A stretch of DNA of 64,000 nt, taken from Bispira polyomma. Lineage: Eukaryota. Location of the stretch: the NCBI GenBank assembly GCA_965649765.1, contig OZ287754.1, positions 24,800,001 through 24,864,000 of the forward strand. The letters are read 5' to 3'. Position 1 is the first letter of the stretch. Every line of letters starts with the position of its first letter. The position numbers were made by a program, and so were the translations under genes. Positions 4,012-64,000 of this stretch are shown here, piece after piece. The notes under the pieces were generated by a model. It saw nothing but the letters and a program-made list of their open reading frames with translations. It searched no databases and was not told where the DNA came from.

Positions 4012-4034
4012 TGTAATAAAAAAAGCCTATAAAT

Positions 4035-4355: not shown

Positions 4356-4359
4356 AAGT

Positions 4360-4792: not shown

Positions 4793-4874
4793 TATATAAA
4801 ACTGATCAAATTTAATATATTGAAGACTGTTGAACTTAAAAAAGGCTGTATTTTAAAATCGTAAGGGAGTAATA

Positions 4875-6008: not shown

Positions 6009-6032
6009 TAGGTTATTGCATTAAGTATCACA

Positions 6033-9129: not shown

Positions 9130-9564
9130 ATGGCTAGAATAAAGACAGAGCTGGATTTAGGCAAAAATGTGCACAGACAAATAATAAATATTAGAAAATA
9201 TTTATTCGACAAATCAGATAATTTAGTTGATTTAAACGTAATAAGTTTGAGAGGTGAGAGTTATACAAGTTTGTATAGGAACATAGCTTTGATCAATAAG
9301 GCTTTGAAAAGAAAAAACAATATCAAAAACTTTCCACTAAGCGATTATGAGACTGTAGGTTTATACAGACAACATCGCTGCAGGAAGATGGGGAAATTCT
9401 GCATATTTGCTGAACCTGAAATGAATGTTGTAATATCAAAGAGAGGCACATGCTTTGCTTTAGAGGAGAAAGAGTGGAAGGACCTTGTGAGAATATGGAA
9501 AAAAGTAGAAAGTAGTGAGACTAGTTGTTATAAGAGTATAACTCTATCCGATATAGCTGATTGA
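9130..9564 (+). CDS. Polinton protein, possibly a tandem PC4-like ssDNA-binding fold
   Basis: 144-aa ORF after TATAA. IINIRKY and KRG..FALEEKEWKDL loosely resemble PC4 motifs. Confidence 0.4.
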   Translation: MARIKTELDLGKNVHRQIINIRKYLFDKSDNLVDLNVISLRGESYTSLYRNIALINKALKRKNNIKNFPLSDYETVGLYRQHRCRKMGKFCIFAEPEMNVVISKRGTCFALEEKEWKDLVRIWKKVESSETSCYKSITLSDIAD

Positions 9565-34952: not shown

Positions 34953-35848
34953 GGGTTCCTAAGACAAAAGAAGTTATTTAGTATCTCCCTTCTTCTTCCA
35001 CTTCCGATTGGTCGCCATCCTGTGGGGGGGATTTTAAAATAATAGAAGAGCGTTCTCCGATAATTTGATTTGTCGGCGATAGGGGTGATAGGTGGTGAGA
35101 CCACTCGGGGATTTGTTACAGACCGGTGAATAGTCGTTGGGGATTTTTTTTGATGGTAGACATGTTGGCGACAAGTGGTGACACTTCTCGGGGATTGTTT
35201 GCACAACCCTAAGGGATAAGGGATTTGATAAGAGATTAGTCGCCGTCTTGCTAAGATCACGAAATATTGCTTTTTTGAACGACAACCCATCTTCAGGCTG
35301 GTCGGAGACAGATTTAAGATAGGTTGCTGATTAAAAATATCAAAGACCAGTTAAGATCAACAAGGATGGCAAACCCAAAACTAAGGGATTCAAATGCTGT
35401 GATTGGATGTTGGCAATGATAGAGAGAAGAAATCAATAGCATTAGATCTAATGGTAATTTTTATTAAGGTAGTTGGTGAACTAAACTGCTTGTGCTTTAG
35501 ACTGAATCAGCAGATATACATGATTTTGCATACGTTATAGATACACATATAGGAGACAATGTTCATAAAATAGTAATGCCAGTTAGAGTGAATTCTTAAA
35601 TTATTTTTAAGGTATATGTTAGTAGACCAGGTATACTTACAATAAATTAATACTCTGCAAATAGATAACTGACATTAACAAACTTAAAGATATGTTATAA
35701 TACAAAAGACAATAATAATTAGAGAGCAATGCGTATTCTCAATTGATTCAAAATATCAGTCCTACCAATATTCTAATTTGATATACTTCTTGCTCATACA
35801 AGTCACACCAATATTTCGGCAGATTGCCCAGCACGACCACTTTAGGGG

Positions 35849-36070
35849 ACTGTGACTAGCACGACCACTTCAGGGGACTGCTGTATCAGTTCACATCACA
35901 ACTTTAATTACCATTTTAAAAACACTTCTGGTTAATGCTGTTCATTGAACCTTATCAGCCATAACCAATCACCTATTGACCTCCCTCCTGAAATAGCTTA
36001 TACTGCCCCAACTTCTGGCACCATTTTGAAAGCAAGCTTCCACCAGTAAACACTGGAAAAAGTTAAAATT
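35849..36070 (+). repeat. Split direct repeat A1
   Basis: 222 bp; 2 mismatches by eye versus 47067-47288. Confidence 0.95.
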
Positions 36071-36206
36071 GGAATCTTGTTTTATGTGCTTTTAAACTGA
36101 GTTAGGATTTTACTTTTTTACATTAAGCTTAAGTATACATTTATATACATATATTATACCGGGTAAAGACTTACTAGTGCAGTTCTAGCACACTCGTCTT
36201 ACAATT

Positions 36207-37319
36207 ATGGGAAGAACGAAGAAAACTCCCGGTAGTGCACCTCAAGCAACTAAGAAACCAGTGACCACCAGGAGGGCTGCTTCTGCAAAGATTAAAGACC
36301 CTGTGGTAAGGAACTTAAGAGACCCGTTAGCCGAGTCAGAGATTTCTATGGGGGGATCTAACGGATTGTCCGGGGTAATGGCCATATTGCAGCGTCTCTA
36401 GTTGGCAAACGCTGACATTAACAAAAGACTAGACCAAGTTGAACTGAAAGGGTCAGTTAATTCAACCCCTTTGACGTCCCCTGTAATACTAGTCAGGAAC
36501 AACACTATGCTAGATTTACGTCCTCACGTAGCGTTGCCATTACCCCCGAATCTGCGTCCAGGTCAGACTGCTCAGCAGCTGGGTCACTCAACTTCGTATA
36601 CTGGCCACCAACATCACGACTACCAATGGGACGGCATCATTCCCAGGCTTGATGTTCTGAAATCCATTCCGGACGTTAACGCCGCTGTGAACCAAAGGCT
36701 TGCTGCATATGACACCCAACTACGACAAGACTTATCCCAAGGTAAGACGTCCTTACGCCAAAAGTCCGGCTGTTACAACACCACAGACGTATATGGTGTG
36801 GAACCTCAGTCACGTTGGGCTAATGAGGGATGGATAGGGGGAACAGCCCGAAAGAGGCCAAGCTTCGATGATCTTACTATGCCCCAATGGGCAGCTGGGC
36901 AACTTGCCAACATCACCCAGGTTTCCGACCCTAATCTGATGAGGCAAATGCTGCACCAGAGGATATACTCGCTCCGGGATGCAGACGCGCTACCATGGAC
37001 GGCAGTGAGGGCAGCATGGGGCGGAAACATGCAGCAGATCGAAGAGGGGCGACTCGACTGGTCGAACTTGAACCGCCTTAGCACTTCTCAGTTGGCACTC
37101 GTCAACCCTCAGACCACGCACCAGGCTCAGAAGGCAAAAGTTTTGTGCAAATACTATAATAATGGTTCTTTCAATAATGAAAATGATCATGGCCAATATA
37201 GGCATATTTGTAATTACTGTTACCGTAACCTAAACAAAGAAAGTGCTCACCCTGAACATAAATGTAACAAAGCGAATGCTACTAAGAAGCCATCTGATGG
37301 CAACCAGTTAACAAAATAG
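36207..37319 (+). pseudogene. gag-like ORF1 of YR retrotransposon 1 (one internal stop at 36399-36401)
   Basis: Same frame across the stop. C-terminal CKYYNNG...HICNYC...HPEHKC zinc-finger region. Homologous to 56578-57942. Confidence 0.88.
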
Positions 37320-37687
37320 GTAGCTAGTCAACGACCAAGTGGATGAACAATTGAACATGTTGTAAATTGCAATAATTTTTTTTATTATATTATTTTTTTT
37401 TTCTCCAGTGCACAAGTACACGTTAATATATAGAAACGTTTAACACCACAACACACTAGTATCAAATGATTGAACAAATTTACATCAAGATATTCATGTT
37501 ACTGACTTCAAGAATTTACATCATATAACGTTTAACACCATAACACGCTAGTATCAATAATTGTATAACTTTACATCTAGATATTGATGTTACTGACTTT
37601 GGGAATTGACAATATTCTGTTATTTAATTTTACATACAATATTTCTTACATTTACCGCTCTAAAAAAAAAAAAAAAAAAAAAAATTT

Positions 37688-40600
37688 CTATATGATCCCT
37701 GTGACAGAAAAAAGAGGACTCCATTTCCCCCATATATTTGAAAAATTCAATGCTTTATCTGTGAGTTTTGCTAAATATTCTTCATCTATATAAATAGATT
37801 CTAATCGTTGCAACAGTGTACTTATATTACGCATATTGTCACTAATGGATGTATCACAAATAAATTTCTTGGTGACAATGATTATTGCATTTAATGGTTT
37901 TTGATTTTGATCAGTGAAAGGATATCCAAATATAATGTCCCAAGTACTAAAAATTACATTAACGTTGATCCTGTCTTTAATAACCCTTGAGAGCTGGGCC
38001 CATACATTTTTTGTACTTTCGCATTCAACAAACATATGCAAAATGGTTTCATCCCGTCCACATTTTCGACACAATGGGTCATCTTTTATCTGAAGTTTAT
38101 ATAAATAGCCTTTTGTTCCTAATATTCTGTAAAGTATTTTCATTTGGAACCATATTAAATTGTTACTCTTAATTGTTCTATGGCAGATGTTGAATATAGT
38201 GGACCATGTTTCATTATCAATAATTAATTTCATGTCTCTGTTCCATTTTAATTTCATTGAATGTTCATTTACATTATTTTTGTTGAATGTTCTGTAGAAA
38301 ACCCTAGCCCCTTGGTTTGCCTTAAATAGTATTTTCATAAAGAAGGGTATTGTCGGTCTTTGCATAATTGCATTTCCTTCTGAGTGTACTTTGCGGAGGA
38401 ATATAGTAACATTTTGTCTAACAGTTAAGTAATTTAATGGATCAATATGATTTATACCGAACTTCTGCTTTAGTCGGCTAAGATCAAGAACTTTTCCAGA
38501 TGTATCTATTACATCGGCCACCATATCAATGCCATTTTTATACCATGTAGACATAAACATAGTCTCTCTTGATATTCTTTCATTAAACCAAAGTGGACTT
38601 GCTAGTAAGTCAAGCCAATATTTCTCGGTTTGGTTTTGACAAATAATGTCCCAGGCATTAAAAACATCCACCCAGAATTTATTTGAGGTTTTTCTTATCA
38701 CATATTTCAGGTAAGTAGGTCCTAAAATAAGAAATTGCGTCAAATCTTCAGTTATGGTATTCTGGAACAGCTGCAGCCACGGTTTATTACAATCTCTTAC
38801 TGTGCGTCGTATCCATGTAGCTTTCGTAGCTTGCATAATATAATCTAAATTACACATCTTAAGTCCACCCAAGTAATAATCAAGCATTAATGTTTTTCTA
38901 TTTATTTTATCAGGTTTATTAGACCATATAAAGTTGAAACATAGGTTTCCTATTTCACTCAATATTGATTTGTCAGGATTTGGAAGACATATAAATATGT
39001 GGTTCAATTTAGAGAGTAAAAGACTCTTAATAACAGTAATTTTTCCTATGGGTGTCAGTGTTCTTCTGCTCCATCTATTTACTAGTTCTTTTACCTCTTT
39101 AAGTTTTTCTATATAATTTAGCTCGATGCACCTGTGTAAGTCTACCGAGAAATTAACTCCCAAAAGGGTAAACTGGCTGGTATCCCATTGAAATTTAATA
39201 TTTATTAATTTTTCTTTGCAATGCTTCTTTTTGCCAATCCATACAATTTGTGTTTTATCTTTGTTTACAATTAATCCAGATATATTGCCAAACACTTCCA
39301 AAGTATTAAGTGCTGCTCTTAATGAATCAGCCGAACCATCCAAGATTAAAGTGGTGTCGTCAGCAAATTGTGTTAGCTTAAATGTCATATTGTTACATTT
39401 AATGCCCTTTATGTCTGGGTTATTTGAAATTAATATAGCTAATATTTGTGCCGCAAGAATAAAAAGATAAGGGGAGATAGGATCTCCCTGTCTACACCCA
39501 CATTGAATGTTTATGAACTCAGAGAGAAAACCACATTGAATCACGCTTGCTTTGATGTCACTGTTAAATAGTCTGATCCAGTCTATAAAGGTTTCATTAA
39601 AATTTAGAAATCTAAGAACATCGTAGATGAAAGGCCATGTAATCGAATCAAAGGCCTTTTCGAAATCAATCATGACTAACATTCCCGGAATATGATGAAC
39701 TTCTGTGTAATGCATAATGTCATAGATGAGACGTGTTGATTCACCGATGTACCGACCTGGGACAAAACCGCATTGTGTGTTATCAATTAAATGATCCAGA
39801 AGAGGCTTAACTCGATTAGCTATTGCTGCAGAGGCCATCTTATACAATACAGTAAGCATAGACAACGGACGCCAATATTTAACAAGCTCACGTGGCTTTC
39901 CTTTCTTTGGTAGGCAAGTAATAACACACTGTCGCAGTGTAAGTGGTAATATTCCTTTTTTAAAGCTGCAATTTAAAGCCTGGGTGATAAAAACTCTTAA
40001 ATCCTTCCAGAATATCTTAAAAAACTCAGAGGGAAATCCATCAATACCGGGTGTTTTATTATTCTTCATTTGTTTTAAGGCCAGACCAATTTCATCTGTA
40101 GAAAGCAGGTCACCAAGATGTGATGTTTGTGCTTCAGTCAATTTCTTTACCTCATAATCCTTTAATAAATTATTCAAATCATAATCCTCCAATTTATCTT
40201 TGCATAGTTGAAAAAGTTTTTTATAATATTGTCTCAGTTCAGCCAAAATTTCATCTTGCTTTGTAATATAGGTATTATCTTTACGTTTTATTCTTTTTAT
40301 TGTTTTTTCAATGTAATTATGACGTTCCAAGGCTAAAAAGTACTTGCTAGGTTTTTCTCCTTCAGCAAGCCATTCAAAACATGACCTTACCTGCTGACCT
40401 TGCATTTTAATATATCTTAAATTTTCAAGTTCAGTTTTTTTAGATTCAATTGTATGAAGCTCATCTACTGGTTTATGTTCTTCTAACCAAGCTATCTCTG
40501 ATAAAAGTGTTCTCTCAAGGTCACAGTTTTTGCGCTTTTTACCAGTTGCATATTTGATGGATTAACCCCCTGATACGTAAAAGTAGTACCTCAATGAACA

Positions 40601-41513
40601 TGTCATAATCAATAGTCATGTTAATATCAGTAAAAGGCTGTTTATTTAGAAAATCAATATTGTAGACTGGAGCTGCATATCTAACATATTCCTCCCTTAT
40701 ACACTGTTTTATTCGACATAAAAATTGGTTTTCTTTCAGAAGACTTGTATTGAGTTTCCATATACCCTTACCTTTGGTGAAATTATTTATTACAAAGCTA
40801 AGTTCCAACATCGAGTGGTCTGATCTATATCCCGGTTTTATGTCTACATTACTAATAAGGTCTGTCATACCAGCTGAAAGCAAAAAATAGTCTAACCTAG
40901 CTTGTTTTGTGGGATTGCGTCGGCGCCATGTATATCTAATTTTGTTTGGGTAGCAATGCCTATAAATATCTAATAAATTATTTTCCTTCAAAATTTGTAG
41001 CACAGTTTGTCTCGAATTTGGATTGTTTACATTAACATAATTATAACTGTCCATATCAGGATTTAAGGTCAAGTTGAAATCACCACACAGTAAAATATAG
41101 TCTTGTTCATTAGTTGCTACTAAGGATCCAACATTTTTATAAAAATCTATATCATCTTTATTTGGACCATATATATTTATAAGCCTTAAGTTAATTCCGT
41201 TAATCTGAAAATCGATCAATATCAAGTTTCCACCTTTGTCTTTGTCTATTTTGCCAATCGTGTATTCAAAATTTGTGCTAAATAGTATTGCTACCCCTCT
41301 TGCATTACCCCTGTTGCCGTTCATAATACATTGGCCATCCCATATTTTTTTCACATCTGGTTCATTTATATCTCTCAAATGAGTATCCTGAAGACATACT
41401 ATATGAGATTTTTTGCCTTTAAAATAGTTCAATACATCAAATAATTTTTCTTTGTTATTTAAACCGCGACAATTTGCTGACAACACAGTTATGTTATTAT
41501 TTACTGCTGACAT
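37688..41513 (-). CDS. LINE ORF2: APE endonuclease, reverse transcriptase and zinc knuckle; single frameshift near 40565
   Basis: SANCRGL, LQDTH, NIYGPN, CGDFN, RLDYF, SDH; KTPGIDG, DFEKAFD, RQGDPISP, QFADD; CRKC...HMFVEC. Confidence 0.95.
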
Positions 41514-42572
41514 TTATTTTGATGCCTAATGATCGCTTGACAAAACAAACTTGTCAAGATGCGCCCATATAAATTCTCTACATAAAAGAGCAACCAGAAT
41601 GTGTACAAAAATCTGTCATCTAGCCTGTACATGTGTTTCAACAGAGCCATTATCTTTAAGATAATAAAAAGTTCAATCATATTGATACTGACACTTAAAT
41701 TACGGTAAAGAAAGTACACTGGAGTAATGCAATTATAACAAAAAAAAATATAAAAAGGAAAAAAAATAAGTACATAAAAAATGCTTGTCATATTTTGACA
41801 ACAAAAGAAAGACAAGCTAACAAATTTGGAAAAAAAAGAAAAGTAAAAAAAAAAAAAAAGTTAGGTTATTACTGGCTGAAGTCCGGTGTGTGGCTACTTA
41901 ATTAACCTGCAAATCAATTTGATTATAAAAGTTAAAAAATTATATAACAAAGGATAAACAAAGTGTTCCATTTGCTTTTAAACACTAGAATACAATGAAA
42001 TAAAAGGCTCCCTAATATTTACTTTTGTCCACCAGCATTTGTGTGGTAAACCATGCAATAGACTAGAGTTAGTGTAAATTCCCCCAATATGGGTGGAAGT
42101 TTTACCCTATACAAGAGTGACCATTTAACCCAATTTAGAACAAAAAGTGGAAATATAACTCTACACACAAGAATGTCCAAATGAAACAAACCTCTATATA
42201 AACACATAGCCAAATTTGTGTGGGGGGGTCATCTCAAGGGGACAAAATCTTCTATTGATAAAACAGAAAATTACATCACACACTTAGGAACAGAATAAAC
42301 ATATCATATATGTTTATCACATAATATTACCAACATATAGATTCAAATATATATACATATACTTATCAATTTAAATTCACCAATTTAAATGATTGTTTAT
42401 GATATTTATAAACAGTTTATAATTATTTCTAGCCTTACCTACTGCAGGTGAATTTTCAAATGAGGGCAACTGTAACTTTAGAACAAATAATTGTTTAGGT
42501 TTTTATAAACTGTTTATGAATATTTCTAGTTTAACTACTGCTGGTAAATTATCAAGTGAAGGTACTTTATCT

Positions 42573-43544
42573 TTAGGACAATGCATGTCTCACACGTTCC
42601 AATGTCTTACCAGCTACATTTTTGCCTGGCCATTTGTCTGGATTGAATATGTCTCTGCTAATCAGTGGTAATCCAACCCCCCAGAATTTGTCAAACATAT
42701 TTGCCTCAACTAGAGTATGCTTGCCTGTGGACAACAAGAAGGACTTTAACTGCTCATTCTGATGAAATTTAGCAAACATTCCTTCATACATATAGTCCGG
42801 AGCCACCTGGAACCATTCTGCCTTTTTGAAACCTCTTACAGATTTGGCCATCTGTTTAATCGTAACAGGGTCTTGGGCTTGAAGGATGCCTTCCGCTGTT
42901 TCCTTATCTTTAAAGTGAGTGGCTTTTTTGTACATCAAGTACTGCTCTGTTGATGTGAATACAATGTCCTCTGCATTAAACTTCGCGGGATGGTGGTTAC
43001 TTAACGGGGAGTTTCTAGTATAAAATGCTTGCACTCCACCATGCCTGGGTGTGAACACATTCTGAGGCAAAAGCAATGGGTTATCAATTGTGTCAATATT
43101 GTCACTAGTGTAAATCTTACCGCCTAGAATGATTCTGTCAACATTGAATCTTGGCTTTAAATCTGGATGTAGCTGAAGTGCTTTGAAGAAAATCGGAAGC
43201 AGCAATTTACGTCTCTCAACAACTTCTCTAGGAAAGTCCTCTTGCACAGTAACACTCATCGTGCGTAGATTCTTTTTTGCTTTCATTATCTTTTCCTTAT
43301 TGTGCCATTGCCAGACCTTTACAATCACTGGTCTAGATCTTCCTTCCATTCTTGGGCCAATAAAATGAGCCTCTGCGATATCCTGCTCTGTAACAGCAAT
43401 TCCCACTTTGGCAAGAATTTCTATAACAACATTGACAAGGTTTTGGGGAGTTGGGCATTGAATACCCAACATCCTAATATTATTTTTTCTTGAGTATGTC
43501 TCTTGCCTTAAATGTTGTTCCTTTAGACTTTTATTTTCTCTTTT
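42573..43544 (-). CDS. LINE ORF1 (end of coiled coil, RRM, CTD) fused to a C-terminal NADAR (YbiA/DUF1768) domain
   Basis: Frame is open to the truncation point (..ETYSRKNNIRMLGI, RPVIVK, VQEDFP..V.ERRK). C-terminal FY...PLSNH, FTSTEQY.M..KA..F.D, AKF.QN..L...LLSTG...LVEA...DKFWGVG, GKN..GK.LE.VR. Confidence 0.92.
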   Translation of the reverse strand, partial: KRENKSLKEQHLRQETYSRKNNIRMLGIQCPTPQNLVNVVIEILAKVGIAVTEQDIAEAHFIGPRMEGRSRPVIVKVWQWHNKEKIMKAKKNLRTMSVTVQEDFPREVVERRKLLLPIFFKALQLHPDLKPRFNVDRIILGGKIYTSDNIDTIDNPLLLPQNVFTPRHGGVQAFYTRNSPLSNHHPAKFNAEDIVFTSTEQYLMYKKATHFKDKETAEGILQAQDPVTIKQMAKSVRGFKKAEWFQVAPDYMYEGMFAKFHQNEQLKSFLLSTGKHTLVEANMFDKFWGVGLPLISRDIFNPDKWPGKNVAGKTLERVRHALS

Positions 43545-46078
43545 TAAATTGCAATAATAGCAGTGGCATAGTTAGTAAATCTAATGTTAGAACTAATAGC
43601 TATTCTGGAAGTAAAGTAGAAAACAAAACTAATGTCAATAACTCTGAGTATCATGTAATTGCTAGTAAAGAAGAAAAAATACAATGTGAAAGTACAGTGA
43701 AATTCTGGGAAAGTACAACTCAGAAAAGTCCAGTTCACGAATATATACACCAGGTTGGGCATTATGAAGTTCATAATGCACTAATATATAGTGATATTTC
43801 TGAAATTGAATGTAACATTTCTACTATAAACTGTATATTTGTGTGTCCACAAGATAATCGTGACCACCAGGTGGTATACTTGCACTTTCCAAAACATAAC
43901 AGCTGGTCAGGTTTCTGCTATGGGATAAAAAGTACCACAAGTGTTAGATATCAGCATTTAGCCAATTTACCAGGCTTTCAGTTAATGGTTACTGACAAAC
44001 AAAAGGTCAATATGTCTGTGCAAACTTGTTATCATGTATATCAGTATAATAATACTGACCGAGAACATGCTGGTCTCACCTTTCGAAACTATCACAGAGA
44101 CCTTACCAGCTACCAGAAAGATAATCACGATTATGTGCAATACATGTATAATATTACTGACATGCTTATTGAAAAGGATAATGTGATAATTTATGTTAAT
44201 AAAGATGAAAAGGTTGGAAAGTCCAAGGTGAGTAGCAAACGAGCGCACACTCCGCCTGTGGATCATGTCGACGGGTTGTTCAGCCCCGACACGGGACACA
44301 GTTCTTCTTCCAAACTAAGTGACATTAAGGACATTACAGACTCTTCCAAAAGTCTAGGCTTAATTAAACTTTCTAGAAAAACCTTCAATTTTGCTGGACC
44401 TGACAGGGATTCGGTTCAGATAGATAGTATAAGTAAAATGACTGATATAGCAAACATTATTAGAAGTACAGGGGTGTCCAACTATAAGCAGGTACGCATT
44501 CCAATTAAATCTCAGTTGAACATTAAGGCCTGGGAGGATATCACCCAGAACCACCCTGACAAAATAATTACACAATATTTAAAGTTTGGCTTTCCACTGT
44601 CATTCAGTGACTCCAAACAACTTAACTCACAAGATGTTACTAACCACCACTCTGCTTTGCAATTTCCTAAGGCTATTGACGAATATCTGAATAAAGAAAA
44701 GAGTAAGGGCGCCATGTTGGGTCCTGTGGCCAACATCCCAGATTCTCAATTCTACTGCTCACCCTTACTTACTAGGCCCAAAAATGGCAGTAAGAGACGA
44801 GTCATTCTTAACCTCTCTTATCCGGTAGGTAATTCAGTTAATGACAACGTTAGTCGGGGAATTTATGATGACACGGAATTCTCACTCAAATTCCCTAGTA
44901 TTGACAATATAACTGCAAGTATTCGGGACACTGATAACCCACTTATGTTTAAGGTGGACATGGCCCGCGCGTTCAGAAATTTAAGAGTCGATCCGGTGGA
45001 CGCCTTAAAGCTGGGTATCAAACATAACGACCAGTATTACGTTGACGCTGCCGTGGTGTTTGGCTGTGCCTACGGCAGTGCTATCTTTCAGCGATGTTCG
45101 GATATCATAGCAGATCAGATGAAAACATTGGGTTATAACCTTCATTGCTACATCGACGACTATGCTTGCATATGTCCGGAATCTCAGGCAAAACAATGTT
45201 TTGACCACCTCTGCAAATTACTGAATTACGTAGGTCTTTCAATGAATCCTGATAAGGTTTGTGCTCCCTCTACTAAGGTCACATTTGTGGGTATTGACAT
45301 TGACATTACTAAGGGAACAATCAGTATAACTAAAGAAAAAATTGCTGAAATATTTCGAACATGTGTCGATACACGGAAAATATCCTGGATATCTCGTACA
45401 AATTTTCAGTGTGTGCTAGGAAAATTGCTTTACATACACAAATGTGTAAAACCTGCCCGTTACTTTATTAATCGTGTCCTTTCAGTTTTTAGGGCTTCCC
45501 CTGGAGCCAAGCGCTTCAAAATTACTAAAAACCTTAAAAGTGATTTAGACTGGTTCATTAATTTTCTTTTTAATTACAACGGGGTCACATATATAAATCC
45601 TCTCCCAATTAAGGCAAACAAAGAAATGTATTTACCTGCATGCCTCACAGGTTTGGGGGGCATTTGGAATGACCAAGTTTACCACACACCTATCTATAAT
45701 GTTTACCAATATGACCTCCATATTACACAATTAGAAATGGTCAATATTGTAGTGGCTTTGAAAGTTTGGGGAGAAAATTGGGCTCACCAAAGGGTGACAG
45801 TCCATTGTGACAACATGGCCGTGGTCTTGGTCGTCCAGACTGGCAAAACTAGAGATCCATACTTAGCTGCTTGTATTCGCAACATTTGGTTGCTTACTTC
45901 AACACACGACATTACTTTAGAAATAGTACACATTAAGGGTAAAAAGAACATATTGGCGGATGCTTTGTCCAGAATCTATTCGGACAATCCTCCTAAACAA
46001 AGTATGATGCAGTTACTTAATCAGTATTAACGAAAACCAGTTCCAATTAGTCATTTTAATTTAAACCTTAACATATAA
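43545..46078 (+). pseudogene. RT-RNase H of YR retrotransposon 1 with a long N-terminal extension
   Basis: FKVDMARAFR, YIDD; RNase H LEMVN, HCDN, ADALSR. First RNase H Asp appears replaced (YLPAC versus HLDAC in element 2). Premature TAA at 46028-46030. Confidence 0.9.
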
Positions 46079-46084
46079 TTTCAG

Positions 46085-47039
46085 GTGCTACATCATCATC
46101 TGACACCTTAGGGAGGGCAGCCATTGACAGAATACATGCTGCTCGCAGACCTTCTACCACAGCAGCATACTCCAGCCAATTCAGAACATACTTGTCGTTT
46201 TTACAGTATGTCCAAATACAGGACATCACCGTCCACTCCGTACTAGCGTTTCTAGAGTATCTGACACAGAACAACATATCTCCAAAAGTGGTGAACAATT
46301 GTTTAGCAGGCATAAAGTTCATGTGTTTGAAGTATAATCTTAATCATACAGTGCTCCAACATAATTCCATTGCTCTGTTCACACGTAGCCTCACTCACAG
46401 TTCTTCTTTTAGACCAGCCCCTAAAGGAGTATTTGATGTCAAACAATTACTGTCAATTTCTGAAAATTGTGAAATACTTAGTGATCCCATACTCTACAGG
46501 GCCATATTTCTGGTAGCTTTCTATGGCTTCCTGCGCATGTTGAACATTGCCCCTCACTCCAGAAGGCAATTTGACCCTTCAAGGCACTTGCTGTGCCAAG
46601 ATTTGATATTTGGCCCTCCTGGGCTTCACATAATCATCAAGTGGGCCAAAAACATGCAGGACCGTTCATACTCGCACATGGTCCAATTACCAAAAATAAA
46701 AATACCACTCCTCTGCCCAGTATGGGCTCTACAGAACCTACTACAATCCAGGAAAATCTCAGATCACTCCCCATCTTTGTAACTGCATCTCCCCCGTACC
46801 ACCCCATAGTGGATTCACACGTTAAGGCAGCTTTGAGAACAGTATTACAACACATAGGTATAAATCATACCATACATGGCTTTCATACGTTCCGTAGATC
46901 CAGAGCTACCCTTGCTTTTAACAACAATATATCACTTCAAAACATCATGGCACACGGGCTGTGGCGAAGCTCTGCTGTATGGACACACCTACAAACAACT
47001 TCCCAAGCTGCCTCAATAATTCCTTCCACACTTTACTGA
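46085..47039 (+). pseudogene. Tyrosine recombinase of element 1 (frameshift near 46775, 3' end clipped)
   Basis: FYGFLR, KWAKN, HTFRRS, HGLWRS; catalytic Tyr appears replaced by His (VWTHL). Frame opens right after tttcag. Confidence 0.9.
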
Positions 47040-47288
47040 CTTTACTTACCATCACACACTAAGGGAACTGTGACTAGCACGACCACTTCAGGGGACTGCT
47101 GTATCAGTTCACATCACAACTTTAATTACCCTTTTAAAAACACTTCTGGTTAATGCTGTTCATTGAACCTTATCAGCCATAACCAATCACCTATTGACCT
47201 CCCTCCTGAAATAGCTTATGCTGCCCCAACTTCTGGCACCATTTTGAAAGCAAGCTTCCACCAGTAAACACTGGAAAAAGTTAAAATT
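47037..47288 (+). repeat. Internal B1-A2 junction repeats
   Basis: B1 47037-47070 matches 47987-48020 (1 mismatch); A2 47067-47288 matches A1. Confidence 0.9.
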
Positions 47289-47986
47289 CCCTCAACCTTC
47301 CGCTTATTCTCCTCCTATAAAAATATACTTTACTTATACAACTCGCGTGGCACCACGTGCTGGTTGGAACCCGGATCCGTGTGGTGCTGGTTCCCAGCTT
47401 ACATCTACCCCCTGGTGTGGGCTACCGGGGATTAAAGCTCTACAGCTGGGAACCTTCACTGCTAGGCGATTAGATGCCGTAGGACCCGGGTTCTGGCGTT
47501 GGTGGTGTTTTCGTTGGAGAAACAATGATTAATTAGTTAGAATCAATTTGTTACATTACTTGTCTGTAAAACTTTATATGCACAATCAGTGCTAGATACA
47601 TTAACAAATCGTAAGGCTCACTGTCAATGAACATTGGGTACCTCAGACGTGGTTCAAGGGATCATTATGATAGTTGCAAGAAAGGTGCATAATGCACTAA
47701 TATACATTGTTAGAACAGGCTTATATGTATGCTTATGATTCTTTTATTGTTTTTAATTGTAACTTTTAGTGACATACTTTTTGGTTAATGGGTAGTCCTA
47801 CATGTATGTTAACTATAGTATTGTGTTTGTATGGTATTACTTACCTATTGTTTGTGCATGTCTGCTTCGGTGGGCTTATTATCGACTATATTTTAAAATT
47901 TTAAATATATCTCATAAACCTGTACATAGATACTAACATGTACAGAAAATAAATCTCCAAACCTTAAAATTCTTGTTATTATTTTA

Positions 47987-48020
47987 TGACTTTACTTACC
48001 ATCATACACTAAGGGAACTG
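47987..48020 (+). repeat. Terminal repeat B2 (part still matching B1)
   Basis: tgactttacttaccatcatacactaagggaactg. Confidence 0.85.
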
Positions 48021-55600: not shown

Positions 55601-56577
55601 GGCTACATATATTTATTCTAAAATTTATTCTATTTTTTAACGATGTATAACATTGCTCATATCATATTATAATGTAGACATGACTAGAAAGGAGCAACAA
55701 GTAGTATGATTTTATTAGCATAATGTTTAATTCAGGAAATGAATAAAAGATAAATAGTGTTTTTATTACGTGATATTATGAAACTATAAATTTGAGGTCA
55801 TTAAGCCAACACTGACTATGAACGGTACTTTTCTCATCCCACATGTTCACAAACAATTTTTTTCAATAATAACCATAGAATTAGGAAAGCAGAGGGAAAT
55901 ATTACTTTTCATAACCACCCATAAAGTAAGAATTTGGACAAAAATGATATACCCCAGAGATACCGTTACCAATCTAGTAAAGCATAAAAGGCCAAAAAGC
56001 CTACAACAATGTTTAACCCCAAGAAGAATTTACAAGGGATACATACAAGGGCGGCAATGTAACGAGACAGAATCATCTTGAAAAAGCTTAAAGTTAGATA
56101 GAATGTTTCTATAAATGACATATGAATGATATGTCATTTTTACCAGCAAGCACACTTTAGTGGGCTGATGTGTTAGTTCTAAAACACATCTTTAAAACTA
56201 TTCTTGTTATACACTCAGTCCATCATAAACTGGACACTGACCAATCAGCATCCAACACACCTCTGCACAACACGACTACTATAGGGGTCTGTTAGTTCAG
56301 TCCAACATAAGATTAATTCAACCTTAAACACCATAGGTTATACCTACTTTTTATTTTCTTGTTTATTGGGTAACAACCAATTAAATTCAAACCCATCCAC
56401 CCATGACCGCTCCCCTCTACTTTCCACCATTATTAACTCGAGACTTGAACGAGCAACAACATATATTGCAAAAACGACTGGAATGTACATAGAATTTTAT
56501 TTTTGTTTGATTTTAGTTTGTTTTTACATTATACATTCAGTCTGACAATATATATACACTTTATATGAACTAAGAAG

Positions 56578-57942
56578 ATGGGGAAGACGGCGAAGAAGCC
56601 TCCTGTTACGCGGTCTACTACTACGAAGGTGAGGGGGAAGAAAACTAAGGGTGTTCCGACAGACGACGGTTCACAGGTAACTGATATCATAGCCTCAGAA
56701 GTACATGCCCAGCTCACCGCTCTAGCCTCTAGAGCTTCGGATCTTTCTTCAGATGCACTATCATCGATCATAACTACGTCCGGAGCTACTTATGTTCAGG
56801 CCACACCTCCACGTGCGCCTTTGAGTACAAGCGTTGTACCAGAAGTCGGGCTCTCTCTACCATTTAATTTCCAAACGCTTGGTAAAGATTCGGCTTATGG
56901 CGGGATCACACCACCACGTTGCCAGACTTTACACACAGATCAACAACTCCCTTCGGGTAGCGGGTCGACTTCAGACAACTCTTCACAAATGCTAGCCATT
57001 TTAAAGCGACTTGAGACTTCAAACGCCGAACTCGGCAAACGTATCGAACGGGTCGAGACTGCTCAGACTCAACAAACACTTCTCAATAGGCAGGTAGCAG
57101 ACGTCGCCGCAACTCAGCTCTTCACGGCGAATCCCAGTACTTCAGCAGTGGCTTCGGCAGGAGCGAACCCTGGCTTGGTTCACCAACTTCCGGTTCAACA
57201 CGAATTCGGCCGTGATGGAGTGGTTCCACAACTAGATACACTGAGGGCGATTCCAGCCATCCAAGCAGCTATAGCCAGACAGTTGGCTGGGTATGATGCG
57301 AATATACAGCGGGACATTTTGCAAGGTAAGCCAGTAAAACAAAAATCTGGTCGTTACAACAGTGCTGATATTTCAACAGCAGACCCCAAGTTTAGATGGC
57401 CGAATGAGGGGTGGGTCGGAGCGAATGCAAAACGTAAACCTACATTTGATGAACTTTCTTTGGCCCAATGGGCAGCAGGGCAAGTAAACAACGCTCTCTT
57501 AGTGACAGACTCGGTCGTGATGAAAGGTATGCTTCAACAGATAGTACATACACTCAGGGACGCGGCCGCTCTCCCCTGGCCGGTCGTCCGCACGGCATAC
57601 GGACACAGTATGCAAGAGGTAGAGGAAGGACGTCTCACGTGGGACAATCAAACGCAGTGGGCGCTAAATAGACTTAGCGCATCACAGACGGCATTAGTAA
57701 GCAGCAATACTAACAATGTCACTGGGGATTCGAGCAAGGGGAAACAAAGTAATGAATTCAAGACGATCTGTAAATTGTATAATAATGGGAAGTGTTCTTA
57801 TAAAGCTGACCATGCAAATTACCGTCACATTTGTTGGCATTGTTCAAAGACATTAGGCAAGGATGCTGTGCATCCAGAGTTTAAATGCTTCAAATTTCAA
57901 TCCAATTTGAACAAGAATCCAGAACTTAGTACGAATCGCTAG
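56578..57942 (+). CDS. gag-like ORF1 of element 2
   Basis: 454 aa; basic N-terminus, coiled coil, C-terminal CKLYNNGKC...H...HICWHC...HPEFKC. Confidence 0.9.
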   Translation: MGKTAKKPPVTRSTTTKVRGKKTKGVPTDDGSQVTDIIASEVHAQLTALASRASDLSSDALSSIITTSGATYVQATPPRAPLSTSVVPEVGLSLPFNFQTLGKDSAYGGITPPRCQTLHTDQQLPSGSGSTSDNSSQMLAILKRLETSNAELGKRIERVETAQTQQTLLNRQVADVAATQLFTANPSTSAVASAGANPGLVHQLPVQHEFGRDGVVPQLDTLRAIPAIQAAIARQLAGYDANIQRDILQGKPVKQKSGRYNSADISTADPKFRWPNEGWVGANAKRKPTFDELSLAQWAAGQVNNALLVTDSVVMKGMLQQIVHTLRDAAALPWPVVRTAYGHSMQEVEEGRLTWDNQTQWALNRLSASQTALVSSNTNNVTGDSSKGKQSNEFKTICKLYNNGKCSYKADHANYRHICWHCSKTLGKDAVHPEFKCFKFQSNLNKNPELSTNR

Positions 57943-60711
57943 GGACAATACCGTCAGCCAATCAGCGGAAATAGCAAGTTTAAAGGTAAGCAGAGTAATG
58001 ATATTAACCAATTTATTAACATTGAGAATAATGTTCCAAAACTCAATAAATGTAGGTATACAAAATTAAATTCTAACAATGCCAATAACGGTGATGTTCA
58101 AGGTATAAACAACTCTGAATGTTTACATTATGAGAACATTGGGAAAAATAAAAATGTCAGCATTCAGGCAACCGAGGAGTTTGAATGGGGGCATTATGAT
58201 AATTATGATATAGAATATAAAGATGTCATAGACACTGTTGAGAAGAATGGTGTAATAGATATAATTCAATGTGATCAGAATATTACAGACAATCTGAATA
58301 TGGGAAAACCAAATGGCATGAATTGTAATGATAAAAAGGTGATTATAAATGAACTTTGGCAGAATGTTGTTAGCCAACTTGACATGGTTAGTAAAGTAAA
58401 AATTTCAGTCACGAATTGGTATGCAATTTCTACATACGGGGGTGTTATGGCACCTGTAGTGCATATGTCTAGTGTAAGTAACGGCTTTTATTGTATATGT
58501 CATTCTGATACTGATAATTGTATGATCTATTCACCTACTGCCATAACCTTTACAGATAAATTGCAGATCATAGATTGTTATGAGACTGAGATTTGGTTGA
58601 ATCACAGTATAAGCAATGATGTAACACCATATAGTATGGTCATGCATTCTCACACTGATAAGCAACAGTCGGTCAATGACCATTACAATTATACTAAAGA
58701 TCTGCAATGCTGGGAGCGTTATGGCTATGATTATACTTCATACATTGAAAATATTATTGACACATTAATGTTGCAATCTGAGGTGTCAGATTATAGTTCA
58801 GATTTAGTAAATGATGATTCAATAAACTTAACTGATAGTACTACCAGGCAACAGCAGGTGAGTAATAACGACGTACCAGAAAAAGACGCATCCCTCTTCT
58901 TCGAAAATTGTGACAGTACATATATACATGAACTTAAAGAAGTTACCAGTTCTGGTGACATTGACATTAATGATCCAGATAAGAAAAAAGGCTTTCTTGC
59001 ACTTTCTAATACAAAATTTGAGTTCAATGGCCCTGATAGACAACCAGTGAACATTGATTCCATTGATGAGATGATTAGAATAGGCAAGGTAATTAGTGAC
59101 ACTCAACTTCCTAATTACAAACAAGCTAGATTTCCTATTGGTTCGGGGTTGAACCCAACTGCTTGGGAAGACATATTTCATGATTACCCTGATCAATTGA
59201 TAATACAATACATTAAGTTTGGCTTTCCTCTAAGTCTTACAAATCATAATAAGTTAAAGAACACAGAAATACACAATCATTTCTCTGCTTTACAATATAC
59301 CAAAGAAGTTGGTCAATACCTGGAGAAAGAAAAGAGTAAGGGAGCTATGTTGGGCCCAGTCAAAGCAATAAATTCCTCTCAACTTCATTGTTCTCCATTG
59401 TTAACTCGTCCCAAAGATATTGATAAAAGACGAATAATCTTGAATCTCTCATATCCTGATGGAAATTCGTTGAATGACAATGTTGATAAAATACACTTTG
59501 ACGGTGTAAAATTTAAATTAAAATTTCCTACTATTGATGACATCACACAGGCAATTATTAATACTGAAGAACCAACTCTATTCAAAATTGATATTTCGCG
59601 CGCGTTTCGTAACCTCAGAGTCGACCCAGCTGAGGCCATTAAGTTGGGCATACTCTGGAATGACAACTTGTACCTTGATCCGGCAATTCCCTTCGGCTGG
59701 GTACATGGAAGCGGGGCATTTCAGCGTTGTTCAGACACAGTCGCTTACTTTATGAGAAAATCCGGTTTTAACTTATTATGCTACATCGATGATTATATAT
59801 GTATAGTACCTAAATCCAAGGCTCAGCAGGGTTTTGAAATTCTTATAGATCTCTTGACAAAACTAGGTCTACCCATGAATAGTGAAAAACTCACTACTCC
59901 CACCTGTAACATTACATGTCTAGGTATAGACATAGACGTGCAGGAAGGTACTATTTCTATAACTAAGGAAAAAATTACTCAAATTTGGAACCTTTGTTTA
60001 GAAATATATAACAAAAAATTCATTTCCAAAAATAAATTTCAATCCCTTTTAGGCAGTTTACTTTACATACATAAATGTGTCAAACCAGCGCGTACTTTTA
60101 TAAATAGACTGTTAATGGCGTTTAGAGGTAATACAGACAAACGTATAAAGATCGATACTGCTATGAAAAACGATTTACAATGGTTTCTAACATTTCTCCC
60201 AGTTTATAATGGCATCACATATATTCAGCCTACCATCATTCAACACGCGAACGAACTGCATCTTGACGCTTGCCTTACTGGCTGCGGAGGAATCTGGGGT
60301 GAACAGATATACGCAACCCCTATTCATAACCTTTACAACAGAGATCTCAACATAGCACATTTAGAAATGTTGAATATCATTATTGCAGTAAGAATATGGG
60401 CTAATGACTGGGCCCACAGCAAACTTAATATTCATTGTGACAATATGGCTGTAGTATTGGTTGTCGGATCACAGAAAACCAGAGACGACTTTTTGGCACT
60501 CTGCTTAAGAAATTTATGGCTGATAGCAGCAACATTCGACATAACACTCACCATCGAACACATCCCTGGTAAGCAAAACGTTATAGCTGACGCTCTTTCA
60601 AGGATTTACTCAGCTCATCCACCTCCTTTGGAAATGTTAAATACACTCAATAACAAATTCCAGTGGAAACAAGTCACACTGGAACACTTTAATCTCAATT
60701 TATTTGTTTAA
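57943..60711 (+). CDS. RT-RNase H of element 2, in frame with gag after a single TAG (first ATG at 58300)
   Basis: No stop codon from 57943 to 58299. FKIDISRAFR, PFG, YIDD; RNase H HLDAC, LEMLN, HCDN, ADALSR. Confidence 0.92.
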   Translation, partial: GQYRQPISGNSKFKGKQSNDINQFINIENNVPKLNKCRYTKLNSNNANNGDVQGINNSECLHYENIGKNKNVSIQATEEFEWGHYDNYDIEYKDVIDTVEKNGVIDIIQCDQNITDNLNMGKPNGMNCNDKKVIINELWQNVVSQLDMVSKVKISVTNWYAISTYGGVMAPVVHMSSVSNGFYCICHSDTDNCMIYSPTAITFTDKLQIIDCYETEIWLNHSISNDVTPYSMVMHSHTDKQQSVNDHYNYTKDLQCWERYGYDYTSYIENIIDTLMLQSEVSDYSSDLVNDDSINLTDSTTRQQQVSNNDVPEKDASLFFENCDSTYIHELKEVTSSGDIDINDPDKKKGFLALSNTKFEFNGPDRQPVNIDSIDEMIRIGKVISDTQLPNYKQARFPIGSGLNPTAWEDIFHDYPDQLIIQYIKFGFPLSLTNHNKLKNTEIHNHFSALQYTKEVGQYLEKEKSKGAMLGPVKAINSSQLHCSPLLTRPKDIDKRRIILNLSYPDGNSLNDNVDKIHFDGVKFKLKFPTIDDITQAIINTEEPTLFKIDISRAFRNLRVDPAEAIKLGILWNDNLYLDPAIPFGWVHGSGAFQRCSDTVAYFMRKSGFNLLCYIDDYICIVPKSKAQQGFEILIDLLTKLGLPMNSEKLTTPTCNITCLGIDIDVQEGTISITKEKITQIWNLCLEIYNKKFISKNKFQSLLGSLLYIHKCVKPARTFINRLLMAFRGNTDKRIKIDTAMKNDLQWFLTFLPVYNGITYIQPTIIQHANELHLDACLTGCGGIWGEQIYATPIHNLYNRDLNIAHLEMLNIIIAVRIWANDWAHSKLNIHCDNMAVVLVVGSQKTRDDFLALCLRNLWLIAATFDITLTIEHIPGKQNVIADALSRIYSAHPPPLEMLNTLNNKFQWKQVTLEHFNLNLFV

Positions 60712-60717
60712 TTGTAG

Positions 60718-61694
60718 GTTCTACCAACATCAGCAGCAGCTTTATACCCTCTGCTTGGGCCAGGATTGATACAGCCATCAGGCCAAAGACTGCTAGCACA
60801 TATAAAGCACAATTTAATACTTTCCTGTCCTTTAATCACTTTGTGGGCATTTCCGAGGTAACAGTTCATTCAGTGTTAGTATTTCTAGAATATCTGGTTC
60901 AGGCAGGGTTATCACCTGGTGCAATAAACAACTATGTAGCAGCTATTAAATACATGACACAAAAATTCCAACTAGATACCACTCCTTTATCTCATAAGTA
61001 CATACAGCTTTTCTTGAGAAGTTTGACTCATAATTCAACTTTCAAGCCTAAACATAAAGGCATTTTCAGCATACAACAGTTAGCCAGCATATCTAAAGCA
61101 TGTGACATTTTACACGATCCACCACTATTTAGGGCCATTTTTCTGCTGGCATTTTTTGCCTTCTTAAGGCTTTCTAATATAGCATCACATTCTAGGGCTT
61201 CATTTGATCCTACAAGACAATTCCTCAGACAGGATCTATTGTTTATTCCACCTGGAGCCCATATTACATTAAAATGGGCAAAAAATCTACAGAATAGATC
61301 TGATACACACAACATACAGATTCCTCAATTGCAGAACTTGGTGTCATGTCCAGTCCTGGCTTTGAGGAAACTACTAGCTTCCAGGGATTTACCTCCTCAT
61401 GCACCTTTATTTGCATCAGCTACTCCACCTTTTTACCCAATAGTGGATTCTCACGTGAGGGCAGCCCTTCAAAAAATATTACAACACATTGGGATAGAAT
61501 ACAAATTTCATGGATTTCACACATTCAGGCGATCAGGCGCCACATACGCATTCAATAATAATGTTTCACTACAGAATATTATGTCACACGGCTTATGGAG
61601 ATCCTCAGCAGTGTGGACTTATCTACAACAAACTTCAGAAGCAGCTTCTGTAGTTCCCCTCACGTTCGCTTCCACCATTCCTTCTTTCTCTTAG
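60718..61694 (+). CDS. Tyrosine recombinase of element 2 (no initiating ATG; probable spliced exon)
   Basis: FAFLRLSN, KWAKN, HTFRRSGAT, HGLWRS, VWTY: complete catalytic set. Frame opens after ttgtag at 60717. Confidence 0.92.
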
Positions 61695-62099
61695 TTGGGC
61701 TTGGGTGTCAAAATTTTAAAGTAAACTTTTTAAAAATTTTTACTTTTATTTCATTATCTGTATTTGTATATATATATACTAACGTGTAAAATAAAATCCT
61801 CAAACAAGAGTTTTACTGTCTTGTCAAATTTACAACTTTCCATCCCCTTTAAGAATTATTTGGGAAAGAATTATAACTTATTAGCTTCACATCTTATAGA
61901 ACTGGACTGACTTATTTAGCATGTGCGTCCCCTCACATACAATCTGCCATTTTAACCCCAGCAAGACAAGGGTAAACATGTGAATAGCAAATGTGTTGAA
62001 AAAAAAATTCTTTTAAAATTTTATGAACTTGTTCAGCATTTAATATTGTTTTTAGTATATGTTTATTTTTTAATATTGTATACGCTCGTTCATAACACT

Positions 62100-64000
62100 A
62101 CCATTATAGGACGCACCAAGAAGACACCATCGAGTGTTCCACAAAAGAATAAGACTGCCATCATCAAGAATCAACGAGAGGTGCAGGATCTGGCTATTCG
62201 GATGCGGTAGTACAAAACCTACAAGTACCCCTATCCGAGCCTAAGGCTAGTACCAATAGCAACCTGGACAGTACAATACTTGTCATTCTCCAGCATCTTG
62301 AAAAGGCCAACATAGAAATAAATAGGTGGCTAGACCGGTTAGAGGCCAGAGGGACCCATAACTCAACACCGCTTGCTTGACTGAGTATTCCTCAAAACGA
62401 TTCACTAGCAGATCTGTGTCGCCAGAATGTCCACATCTAGACAGCACATGTTCCCATTAACCTGACGGTTCAACCTGTCATGAATCAACTGACAGCAACG
62501 GTAGCTGGTCAAGACTATCAACAGGATGGCATTTTTCCATGGGTGGATGTCCTACGCAACATTTCCAAAGTCACCGAGGCCGTCAACTCATGACTAGCAG
62601 CATTTGACACTCACTATACACAGGACCTTGCTCAAGGTAAGACAACCACGAGGCAAAAGTCAGGTAGATACAATTCTACAGATGTGTGCTTAGCAGAACC
62701 CCAGTTTAGATGGCCTAATGAGGGTTAGATCGGGGGTACAGCCTGTAAGAAAACCTAATTTGACGAGCTCTCTTTATCACAGTGGGCAGCTGGCCATTAA
62801 TATAATCCATGTTAAACCAGATGGTCTACGCTTTCAGAGACTTGCACGCTTTGTCCTGGCCACAGGTTCAAGCTGCATGGGCCCATAATATGCAGGAGAT
62901 AGAGAAAGGAAGACTCGACTGGTCCAATGCTACACAACTGAATCACCTTAGCTTATCACAACTGGCCCTGGTATAAGGCCATTTCACGCACACCTCTGCG
63001 AATCAACAGAAGGCCGAGGTTATTTGTAAATATTTCAACAGTGGGTCGTGTAGTCACGACAGTGATCATAGTCAATACAAGCATCATTGCTTATATTGTT
63101 TTAAGGTATTAAACAAGGAAAACAGTCACCCTGAGTTTAAATTCTGAAAGCCAACACTTCAAACACTAAGTCTGGCATCTAGTATGGTGGTCGGCGACCT
63201 TGTACAGCTTTTGACAATGATAAATTTAGTAGAGTTAACAGAGACGTAAATGTAAAAGTATGTAAATTTATTGAAAATAGAAGTAGCATATTTATTGCAG
63301 TTAACTTAGACAATAGTACAGAGACAAACAATAGTCAAGGAAGTATTGAATCAAATGTGATTGCTAATGTTGACTCACCTGTTATGGGAGTTGACATGGA
63401 GCATGCTAGCATAATTGCAGAGCAGGATAAGCACAAAAGTCATAACGTATACAAAAATGGGGGTCATTATGATTCTTACTAATCAGATTTGTATTACAAA
63501 AATGTCAAAAATGCACCCATGTATTTTTGTACATGGAACTTGGCCTGCAAAATGTTTCAATATGTTAACTGCTGGGGTAACCAAGCGGTAGTTTAATAAT
63601 ATGTGGCAGATTACATGGAAATTTCAGGTTTTTACTGTGAGAGTTACAACTCTTTTTCCAAGAACTCCACTTATACTCCACTAGGGGAAATCCCCACTTT
63701 TCCCTACGGGGTTTCTTATACACTTGATACTAAAGTCAATATTGACTACAACTCGGTAAGAATTGAATGTTTTAACAAAAGTAAAACTATGTATGCAAAA
63801 TTGACCCAAGATAATCACAGCGGGGACCTGGAATGCCATAACTTATTTGGTCTTGATTATACAACATACATGCAGCATGTTATTGACTGCATTATTGAAT
63901 GATATTATTTCAGTATTAAGAAATTAAAAATACCTGTGAAGGCAAGCAAATTTGGAAGTGTAAGTGTCTTCGAACGTGTATCTGTCAACATAAATGAGTC
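62100..64000 (+). mobile_element. Decayed tyrosine-recombinase retrotransposon 3 (gag and start of pol), running off the window
   Basis: GRTKKTPSS, QDLAQGK..RQKSGRYNST, FRWPNEG, CKYFNSGSC..HC.YC..HPEF with stops. TAG at ~63180 is followed by ~100 open codons. Confidence 0.88.

What the first reader, a model, noticed from the sequence alone, without database searches (positions are those of the whole stretch)
57325..61694. Tyrosine recombinase apparently made by splicing from mid-gag (Gag-N/YR fusion)
Seen: neither YR frame has an initiating ATG. Each opens right after a T-rich 3' splice site just past the natural RT stop (ttgtag|G at 60717/60718; tttcag|G at 46084/46085). Each gag has a consensus donor CAAG|GTAAG at the same aligned QGK codons (after 57325, 36741 and 62636). 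Donor and acceptor are both phase 1, so joining 57325 to 60718 or 36741 to 46085 gives an in-frame protein (about 249 aa Gag plus 325 aa YR in element 2). The signals persist in elements whose flanking sequence has diverged strongly. Inference: a subgenomic spliced mRNA, like retroviral env, supplies the recombinase and leaves out the Gag zinc-finger half.
Basis: partly seen in the sequence, partly recalled or inferred. Interest (0 to 1): 0.78.

Follow-up and report, generated by a model that had tools for sequence, protein, structure and literature searches.

The report
Retrotransposon splices Gag onto its recombinase
A family of jumping genes in an animal genome appears to make its DNA-inserting enzyme by splicing the front half of its structural gene onto it, which would explain how an enzyme gene that usually lacks its own start codon is expressed; RNA evidence is still missing.

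Summary
The sites are real and under selection. The elements are Ngaro-type retrotransposons (split direct repeats A1…B1A2…B2). Across 125 copies in 47 sequence clusters, down to 33–46% recombinase (YR) identity and including another organism, a phase-1 donor G|GTA ends a conserved Gag helix in 37 of 39 scorable clusters. A phase-1 TTNYAG acceptor opens YR in 42 of 44. The three donor codons rank 1–3 of 769 positions for synonymous conservation. The frame of YR relative to RT varies over all three values, but the splice phase does not. Pol probably comes from readthrough of a single in-frame gag stop (TAG-G in 19 of 19 clusters). The retained Gag part holds a predicted trimeric coiled coil. 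No RNA data were available, no spliced DNA copy was found, and 10 of 29 close clusters have an ATG near the YR start. Ten literature searches found no description, but two key papers were unavailable. This scan reported a similar splice before, on other DNA (a diatom-like genome and protists). Verdict: about 85% real, a new variant of Ngaro gene expression.

The parts
56264..56473 (+). Element 2, left terminal repeat A1
   Evidence: Repeated as A2 directly after B1 in full-length copies L031-L036
56578..57942 (+). gag ORF, 454 aa: basic N-terminus, coiled coil, variable Q/P linker, helix pair, helical core, Cys/His zinc-finger-like C-terminus
   Evidence: ORF, alignment, AlphaFold2 model pLDDT 71.8; no Pfam family
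56977..57129 (+). Predicted parallel coiled coil in the Gag part retained by the splice
   Evidence: Three-copy model score 0.66, best control 0.01, contacts agree at least 48%, partner pLDDT at least 52; helix
57322..57331 (+). 5' splice donor CAAG|GTAAG, phase 1, exon ends at 57325, at the end of a conserved helix
   Evidence: low-confidence loop right after helix 95-117 of the model
57326..60717 (+). Inferred 3392-nt intron holding the Gag C-half and all of pol
   Evidence: inferred, not seen in RNA
57940..57943 (+). gag stop TAG followed by G, in frame with pol; candidate readthrough site
   Evidence: TAG-G in 19 of 19 clusters with an intact Gag C-half; pol frame open from the stop to the RT core in 16 of 79 copies; in-frame TGA in L111 and L113
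57943..60711 (+). pol frame, 922 codons: variable linker, RT, RNase H; no methyltransferase match
   Evidence: RVT_3 for element 2; RVT_1 and RVT_3 for element 1
58384..58785 (+). Conserved 134-aa beta-plus-helix domain of unknown role in the pol linker
   Evidence: Alignment of 14, model pLDDT 76.7
60712..60718 (+). 3' splice acceptor TTGTAG|G, phase 1, directly after the RT stop TAA (60709-60711)
   Evidence: TTNYAG at the aligned column in 82 of 82 close copies
60718..61694 (+). Tyrosine recombinase exon with R, K, HxxR, H/W and Y motifs present
   Evidence: Pfam Phage_integrase and SAM-like domains; motifs
61703..61909 (+). Repeat B; the A2-spacer-B2 block is missing in this copy
   Evidence: Segmental duplicates L031 and L032 keep about 1.67 kb more between B1 and B2; loss by B1 x B2 recombination is inferred
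35844..48020 (+). Element 1, a broken relative: A1 35844-36070, donor 36741, LINE insertion about 37377-43541, acceptor 46084, A2 47062-47288
62100..64000 (+). Element 3, a decayed relative running past the window; donor after 62636 kept, acceptor AG lost
   Evidence: locus L166

Best explanation
An Ngaro-type retrotransposon makes three proteins from one start codon. (1) Unspliced RNA gives Gag. (2) Occasional readthrough of the single in-frame gag stop gives Gag-Pol. (3) A conserved phase-1 intron from mid-gag to just behind the RT stop is spliced out, giving a Gag-N/recombinase fusion (574 aa in element 2). The fusion keeps Gag's basic N-terminus, coiled coil and helix pair and drops the helical core and zinc fingers. 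The shared coiled coil most likely lets the recombinase co-assemble with Gag on the RNP where cDNA is made. Shown by sequence: the sites, their phase, nucleotide-level constraint and the in-frame stop. Inferred: that splicing occurs (about 0.85), readthrough (about 0.75), co-assembly as the purpose (about 0.5).
For: Donor: GGT in 27 of 27 Gly-bearing clusters against a top-codon share of 0.29-0.81 at 29 other conserved Gly; AAG in 28 of 28 against 0.50-0.81 at 16 other Lys. The three codons rank 1-3 of 769. In distant families the residue after Gly changes (K, N, T, M, R) yet always begins with A. Acceptor: TT, Y, AG and G each in 29 of 29 clusters, with position -4 free (A7 G11 T11), the pattern of a 3' splice site (consensus from established knowledge). 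These bases follow the RT stop, and in the YR frame the codon varies (S, V, T, A) but always ends in A. Phase 1 in 37 of 39 donors and 42 of 44 acceptors, against at most 2 in either other phase. The RT-to-YR frame offset takes all three values (5, 4, 2 of 11 families), and L111 has a 339-nt spacer yet keeps the acceptor. Of 17 database YR proteins that extend past the junction, 16 read I-(S/V/P)-(G/D). The only donor-like site kept in over 60% of clusters among 3378 positions scored is this one. The retained Gag part models as a trimer: 0.66 against best control 0.01; the mark was reached by 17 of 29 eukaryote pairs and 0 of 30 single chains; agreement at least 48%, pLDDT at least 52; coiled coils may pass from memory and the calibration used two copies.
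Against: No transcript or protein shows the junction. No fusion protein among database hits. No precisely spliced DNA copy: 0 of 13 motif matches and 0 of 27 young copies, although the spliced RNA would keep the repeats. 10 of 29 close clusters have an in-frame Met within 21 codons of the acceptor or just upstream of it. Which donor pairs with which acceptor is inferred from phase and uniqueness only. A second phase-1 donor-like site near the RNase H end (60568/60569) is present in 17 of 29 clusters. Clusters are related, so counts are not independent, and the windows were set after I had seen the sites.
Confidence: 0.83

Rival explanations
1. The acceptor is used, but with another donor (near the end of RNase H, or from an internal promoter), giving a Pol-YR fusion or a separate YR mRNA; the gag donor serves something else.
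For: Phase-1 donor-like site at 60568/60569 in 17 of 29 clusters. An NCBI gene model from a hemichordate joins RT-RNase H to YR (P0263). A TTTCAG at 59719-59724 is kept in 25 of 29 clusters.
Against: The 60569 codon shares (0.61) are ordinary, and splicing there would remove the conserved end of RNase H. The 59724 site gives only 3-22 open codons with the gag donor. No conserved in-frame acceptor exists for pol. P0263 is a distant, predicted model.
Confidence: 0.07
2. YR is made without splicing, by termination-reinitiation, leaky scanning or a non-AUG start at the RT stop.
For: YR starts within 30 nt of the RT stop in 10 of 11 families. An ATG overlaps the stop in 2 of 29 clusters, and 8 have Met at codon 10.
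Against: 19 of 29 clusters, including both window elements, have no Met before codon 45. The overlapping codon is ATA, TTA, GTA, CTA, GTG or CTG in 27 of 29. L111 has a 339-nt spacer. This reading does not explain the frozen donor.
Confidence: 0.05
3. YR is reached by frameshift or readthrough from RT, as a Gag-Pol-YR polyprotein.
For: In 4 of 11 families RT and YR share a frame. In fungal Ngaro elements YR can be in frame or shifted (PMC3783388, passages).
Against: The offset takes all three values. The YR frame opens as few as 4 codons before the acceptor. No slippery heptamer shows in the base counts. L111 has stops in the spacer.
Confidence: 0.03
4. The motifs are conserved for another cis role (RNA structure, packaging, protein binding) or are splice signals that regulate RNA export or stability without a translated product.
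For: No RNA or protein evidence exists here; retroelements carry many cis signals (established knowledge).
Against: Two independent motifs match both splice consensuses, including the free -4 position, and keep the one phase that preserves the frame.
Confidence: 0.02

Closest known systems
Ngaro-like tyrosine-recombinase retrotransposons (order DIRS)
   Same: gag, RT/RNase H and YR on one strand; split direct repeats A1 ... B1 A2 ... B2; no methyltransferase (definition: PMC13465315, PMC4157794, PMC9210276).
   Different: None of the passages I read says how YR is expressed; 'splic' had 0 hits in PMC3783388, PMC3266345, PMC9210276 and PMC8547959. No SGNH hydrolase ORF, unlike Xenopus Ngaro. 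Extra 134-aa domain in the pol linker.
Gammaretrovirus expression plan: gag UAG readthrough for Pol, spliced env (recalled, no call)
   Same: In-frame UAG-G between gag and pol, and a spliced subgenomic RNA for the last gene.
   Different: The donor lies inside gag, so the last gene is fused to half of Gag. The last gene is the integrating enzyme, which retroviruses place in Pol.
Murine leukaemia virus SD' RNA, a Gag/integrase-fragment fusion (recalled, no call)
   Same: A donor inside gag spliced to a downstream acceptor gives a Gag-N fusion.
   Different: As I recall it carries only a C-terminal piece of integrase and is accessory. Here the whole recombinase would depend on the splice.
Foamy virus spliced pol; copia-type spliced gag RNA (recalled; related reviews seen only as search listing)
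   Same: Splicing sets the ratio of structural to enzymatic proteins.
   Different: Those splices separate Gag from the enzymes; this one joins part of Gag to the recombinase.

Membership tests
Ngaro-like retrotransposons | Split direct repeats A1 at the 5' end; B1, A2, B2 at the 3' end | tested here: met
   All four repeats in L031-L036, B1A2 adjacent. The window copy has lost A2-B2.
Ngaro-like retrotransposons | gag, RT/RNase H and YR in that order on one strand | tested here: met
Ngaro-like retrotransposons | No methyltransferase domain after RNase H | tested here: met
   No such Pfam match at E 0.05, and pol ends 36 residues after the RNase H match (808-886 of 922)
Ngaro-like retrotransposons | RT/RNase H groups with reference Ngaro elements in a tree | not testable with these tools
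   No named reference sequences were on hand; the YR tree (quick method) holds only unnamed relatives
DIRS1-like retrotransposons | Inverted terminal repeats with an internal complementary region | tested here: not met
   Only direct repeats flank the elements
PAT-like retrotransposons | Split direct repeats plus a methyltransferase domain | tested here: not met
   Repeats present, but no match and little room for the methyltransferase
Spliceosomal GT-AG intron | Consensus donor and acceptor under nucleotide-level constraint, frame-preserving phase | tested here: met
   consensus from established knowledge, not calibrated on host introns
Spliceosomal GT-AG intron | Branch point upstream of the acceptor | tested here: inconclusive
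   An invariant A at -26 in a YTRAY-like context is also explained by an Asn/Asp codon of RT
Spliceosomal GT-AG intron | Removed from the RNA | not testable with these tools
   No RNA run holds the element

The most novel reading that the evidence does not exclude
Splicing of the recombinase onto part of Gag, together with gag-stop readthrough, is the general and so far undescribed expression plan of a wide Ngaro lineage. The Gag coiled coil then acts as the packaging tag that brings the integrating enzyme into the particle, a third route beside polyprotein cleavage and separate translation.
Probability: 0.4. Interest if true: 0.8.

Novelty: new variant of a known kind. Interest (0 to 1): 0.64.

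Why it matters
Tyrosine-recombinase retrotransposons are widespread but little studied mechanistically, and I found no account of how their third ORF is translated. This gives an exact, testable answer: one RT-PCR product and one junction peptide. It implies that the working recombinase is a Gag fusion, so annotations and biochemistry based on the bare YR ORF may use the wrong N-terminus. It also makes host splicing a control point for the element.

Tried and rejected
RNA evidence: no RNA holder listed. The three runs found, laid as contigs, show flat cover over the element and cover of its flanks, so they behave as DNA; no 57325>60718 joint was listed. This is uninformative. Fusion proteins: the 'longer' search gave 1 hit, a frameshifted RT/YR; of the best 150 representatives only one (P0263, 761 aa) had YR starting beyond residue 200. 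These collections seem to hold mostly unspliced ORF calls (inferred from the proteins' starts), so the blank is weak. Spliced DNA copies: a 12-letter motif was too loose; a 20-letter motif gave 13 matches against 8 for the control, none in an element; 5 copies with unusually long YR frames were internal deletions or lost stops; 27 of 27 young YR starts lie 2.9-3.5 kb from a gag donor (paired by hand). A second acceptor for pol: none conserved among 16 open copies. Other collections: single-protein metagenome scan and two viral scans found nothing. Folds: no match above Z 3.8 for the linker domain or Z 5.2 for Gag; an Atlas hit to 2OG-Fe(II) oxygenases at 0.87 is a weak lead that I did not adopt. 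Papers: Goodwin and Poulter 2004 and Poulter and Butler 2015 are not held. The careful tree did not finish; only the quick tree was seen. Host introns were not collected to calibrate the consensus. No supplements were read.

Full report
Observation. The window holds three related elements. Pfam finds RT and RNase H families in the second frame and a phage-integrase-type recombinase with a SAM-like N-terminal domain in the third. The catalytic motifs of the recombinase are present. Element 1 is broken by a stop, a LINE insertion and a frameshift. Element 3 is decayed and has lost its acceptor.

Identity. The window comes from a 1.04-Gb genome with many relatives; that it is an animal is inferred from its size and element content. 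Full-length copies show A1 at the left end, B1 joined to A2 after the recombinase, and B2 at the right end. This arrangement, with no methyltransferase, defines Ngaro-like elements (PMC13465315 and PMC4157794, passages). The window's element 2 lacks about 1.67 kb (A2 to B2) that its segmental duplicates keep. At least 27 copies are 98-100% identical at the recombinase start, so the family copied recently.

Close copies. I fetched 80 of the 273 matches listed, choosing for few internal stops and spread of identity, and added the two window elements. They form 29 clusters at 90% identity, with a median of 60% nucleotide identity between clusters. TTNYAG stands at the aligned column in 82 of 82, followed by G in 81. 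Per cluster, positions -6, -5, -2, -1 and +1 are invariant, -3 is always a pyrimidine and -4 is free. These bases lie after the RT stop, and in the recombinase frame they give four different amino acids whose codons all end in A, so the constraint is on the bases. The donor region could be anchored in 75 of 82 copies and the motif was found in 72, two of them with a point change. The Gly codon is GGT in 27 of 27 clusters and the Lys codon AAG in 28 of 28. The commonest codon reaches only 0.29-0.81 at 29 other conserved Gly and 0.50-0.81 at 16 other Lys. The three donor codons are the top three of 769 positions for synonymous conservation.

Distant families. I added 40 more stretches from the genome and three metagenome loci from another organism, making 125 sequences in 47 clusters. 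With windows anchored on protein motifs, G|GTA is in phase 1 in 37 of 39 scorable clusters (phase 0: 1; phase 2: 0), and TTNYAG is in phase 1 in 42 of 44 (2 each in the other phases); 8 and 3 clusters could not be anchored. The window limits were set after I had seen the sites. The misses are a copy with a frameshift beside an intact donor, a copy with a changed donor, the decayed element 3, and a two-copy cluster in which one copy keeps the acceptor. At 33-46% recombinase identity the residue after the donor Gly becomes Asn, Thr or Met, always from a codon starting with A. The RT stop lies 11 to 339 nt before the recombinase anchor and in all three frame offsets, while the splice phase never changes. 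These families sit on deep branches of the quick tree.

Start codons. In 19 of 29 clusters there is no Met before codon 45 of the recombinase and none upstream; in both window elements the first is codon 80, which would cut off the SAM-like domain. Ten clusters do have a nearby Met, which keeps internal initiation open for them but does not explain why they also keep both splice signals.

Pol. Earlier scan notes on other genomes proposed several acceptors for one donor, so I looked for one for pol and found none conserved. Instead gag ends in TAG-G in 19 of 19 clusters with an intact C-half, and the pol frame is open from that stop through 317-376 linker codons to the RT core in 16 of 79 copies. 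L111 and L113 have an in-frame TGA. Readthrough is the simplest reading and is inferred.

What the fusion keeps. Gag-N is 174-332 residues in copies read from their first Met: a basic start, a conserved heptad helix, a variable linker and a conserved helix pair that ends at the donor. AlphaFold2 puts the donor in a low-confidence loop right after that helix, a natural boundary. Three copies of Gag residues 132-250 model as a parallel coiled coil (0.66 against best control 0.01; mark reached by 17 of 29 eukaryote pairs and 0 of 30 single chains; agreement at least 48%, pLDDT at least 52). This supports but does not show self-association, and coiled coils can pass from memory. Co-assembly of the fusion with Gag is my inference.

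Against. No RNA run was available. No fusion protein or spliced DNA copy was found. A second phase-1 donor-like site near the end of RNase H occurs in 17 of 29 clusters, and an out-of-frame TTTCAG inside RT in 25 of 29. A distant hemichordate gene model joins RT to the recombinase. Clusters are related, so counts overstate independence.

Literature. Ten searches found no paper describing this splice. I read term-matched passages of PMC7192593, PMC4157794, PMC2632668, PMC8547959, PMC3783388, PMC3266345, PMC13465315, PMC4495291, PMC6681497, PMC5633606 and PMC9210276 (also its section 8); none in full and no supplements. The founding paper and the main review are not held, so an earlier mention there or in Repbase is possible; I put it at about 25%. 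Retroviral parallels are recalled. Unchecked notes of this scan report a similar Gag-to-recombinase splice in a diatom-like genome and readthrough stops in protist Ngaro elements; they are leads, not support.

Verdict. The feature is real, conserved far beyond this window, and best explained as a spliced Gag-N/recombinase mRNA (0.83). It is a new variant of a known kind, decidable with one RNA data set. Interest 0.64.

Noticed in passing
window 57940-57960: After the gag TAG-G a CRR-CRR-CYA-like motif recurs four to six codons on in most clusters; a possible readthrough signal.
   Followed up: partly
window 58384-58785: A conserved 134-aa domain (five strands, two helices) sits in the otherwise variable pol linker; no clear fold match.
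   Followed up: partly
window 59689-59735: RT codons around the F-Q-R motif are biased (CAG in 25 of 28 Gln; GCG in 17 of 24 Ala), hinting at an unexplained cis element.
   Followed up: partly
window 656-9564: Polinton/Maverick-like gene cluster in pieces: polymerase-like frames and a protease-like frame (recalled motifs), ATPase-like and integrase-like frames (below Pfam cut-off), a NADAR domain and a BIR protein.
   Followed up: no
window 37377-43541, minus strand: LINE inserted in element 1 with a NADAR domain at the end of its first ORF, then endonuclease and RT frames. NADAR also occurs in the Polinton-like cluster.
   Followed up: no
window 55220-62046 versus L031, L032: The region lies in a segmental duplication at 99.9% identity on the same contig; only the window copy has lost A2-B2.
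   Followed up: partly
L145; G000:C7:12454575-12463782: Two copies of a distant family stand head to head as an inverted pair.
   Followed up: no
L111:30-1121, L113:90-1316: These distant Gags begin with a Cys/His knuckle-like motif in place of the basic start, so their fusion would carry it.
   Followed up: no
window 29300-29821, 30875-32224, 50836-52443: Fragments of a DDE_Tnp_4 transposase and two further LINE-like elements.
   Followed up: no
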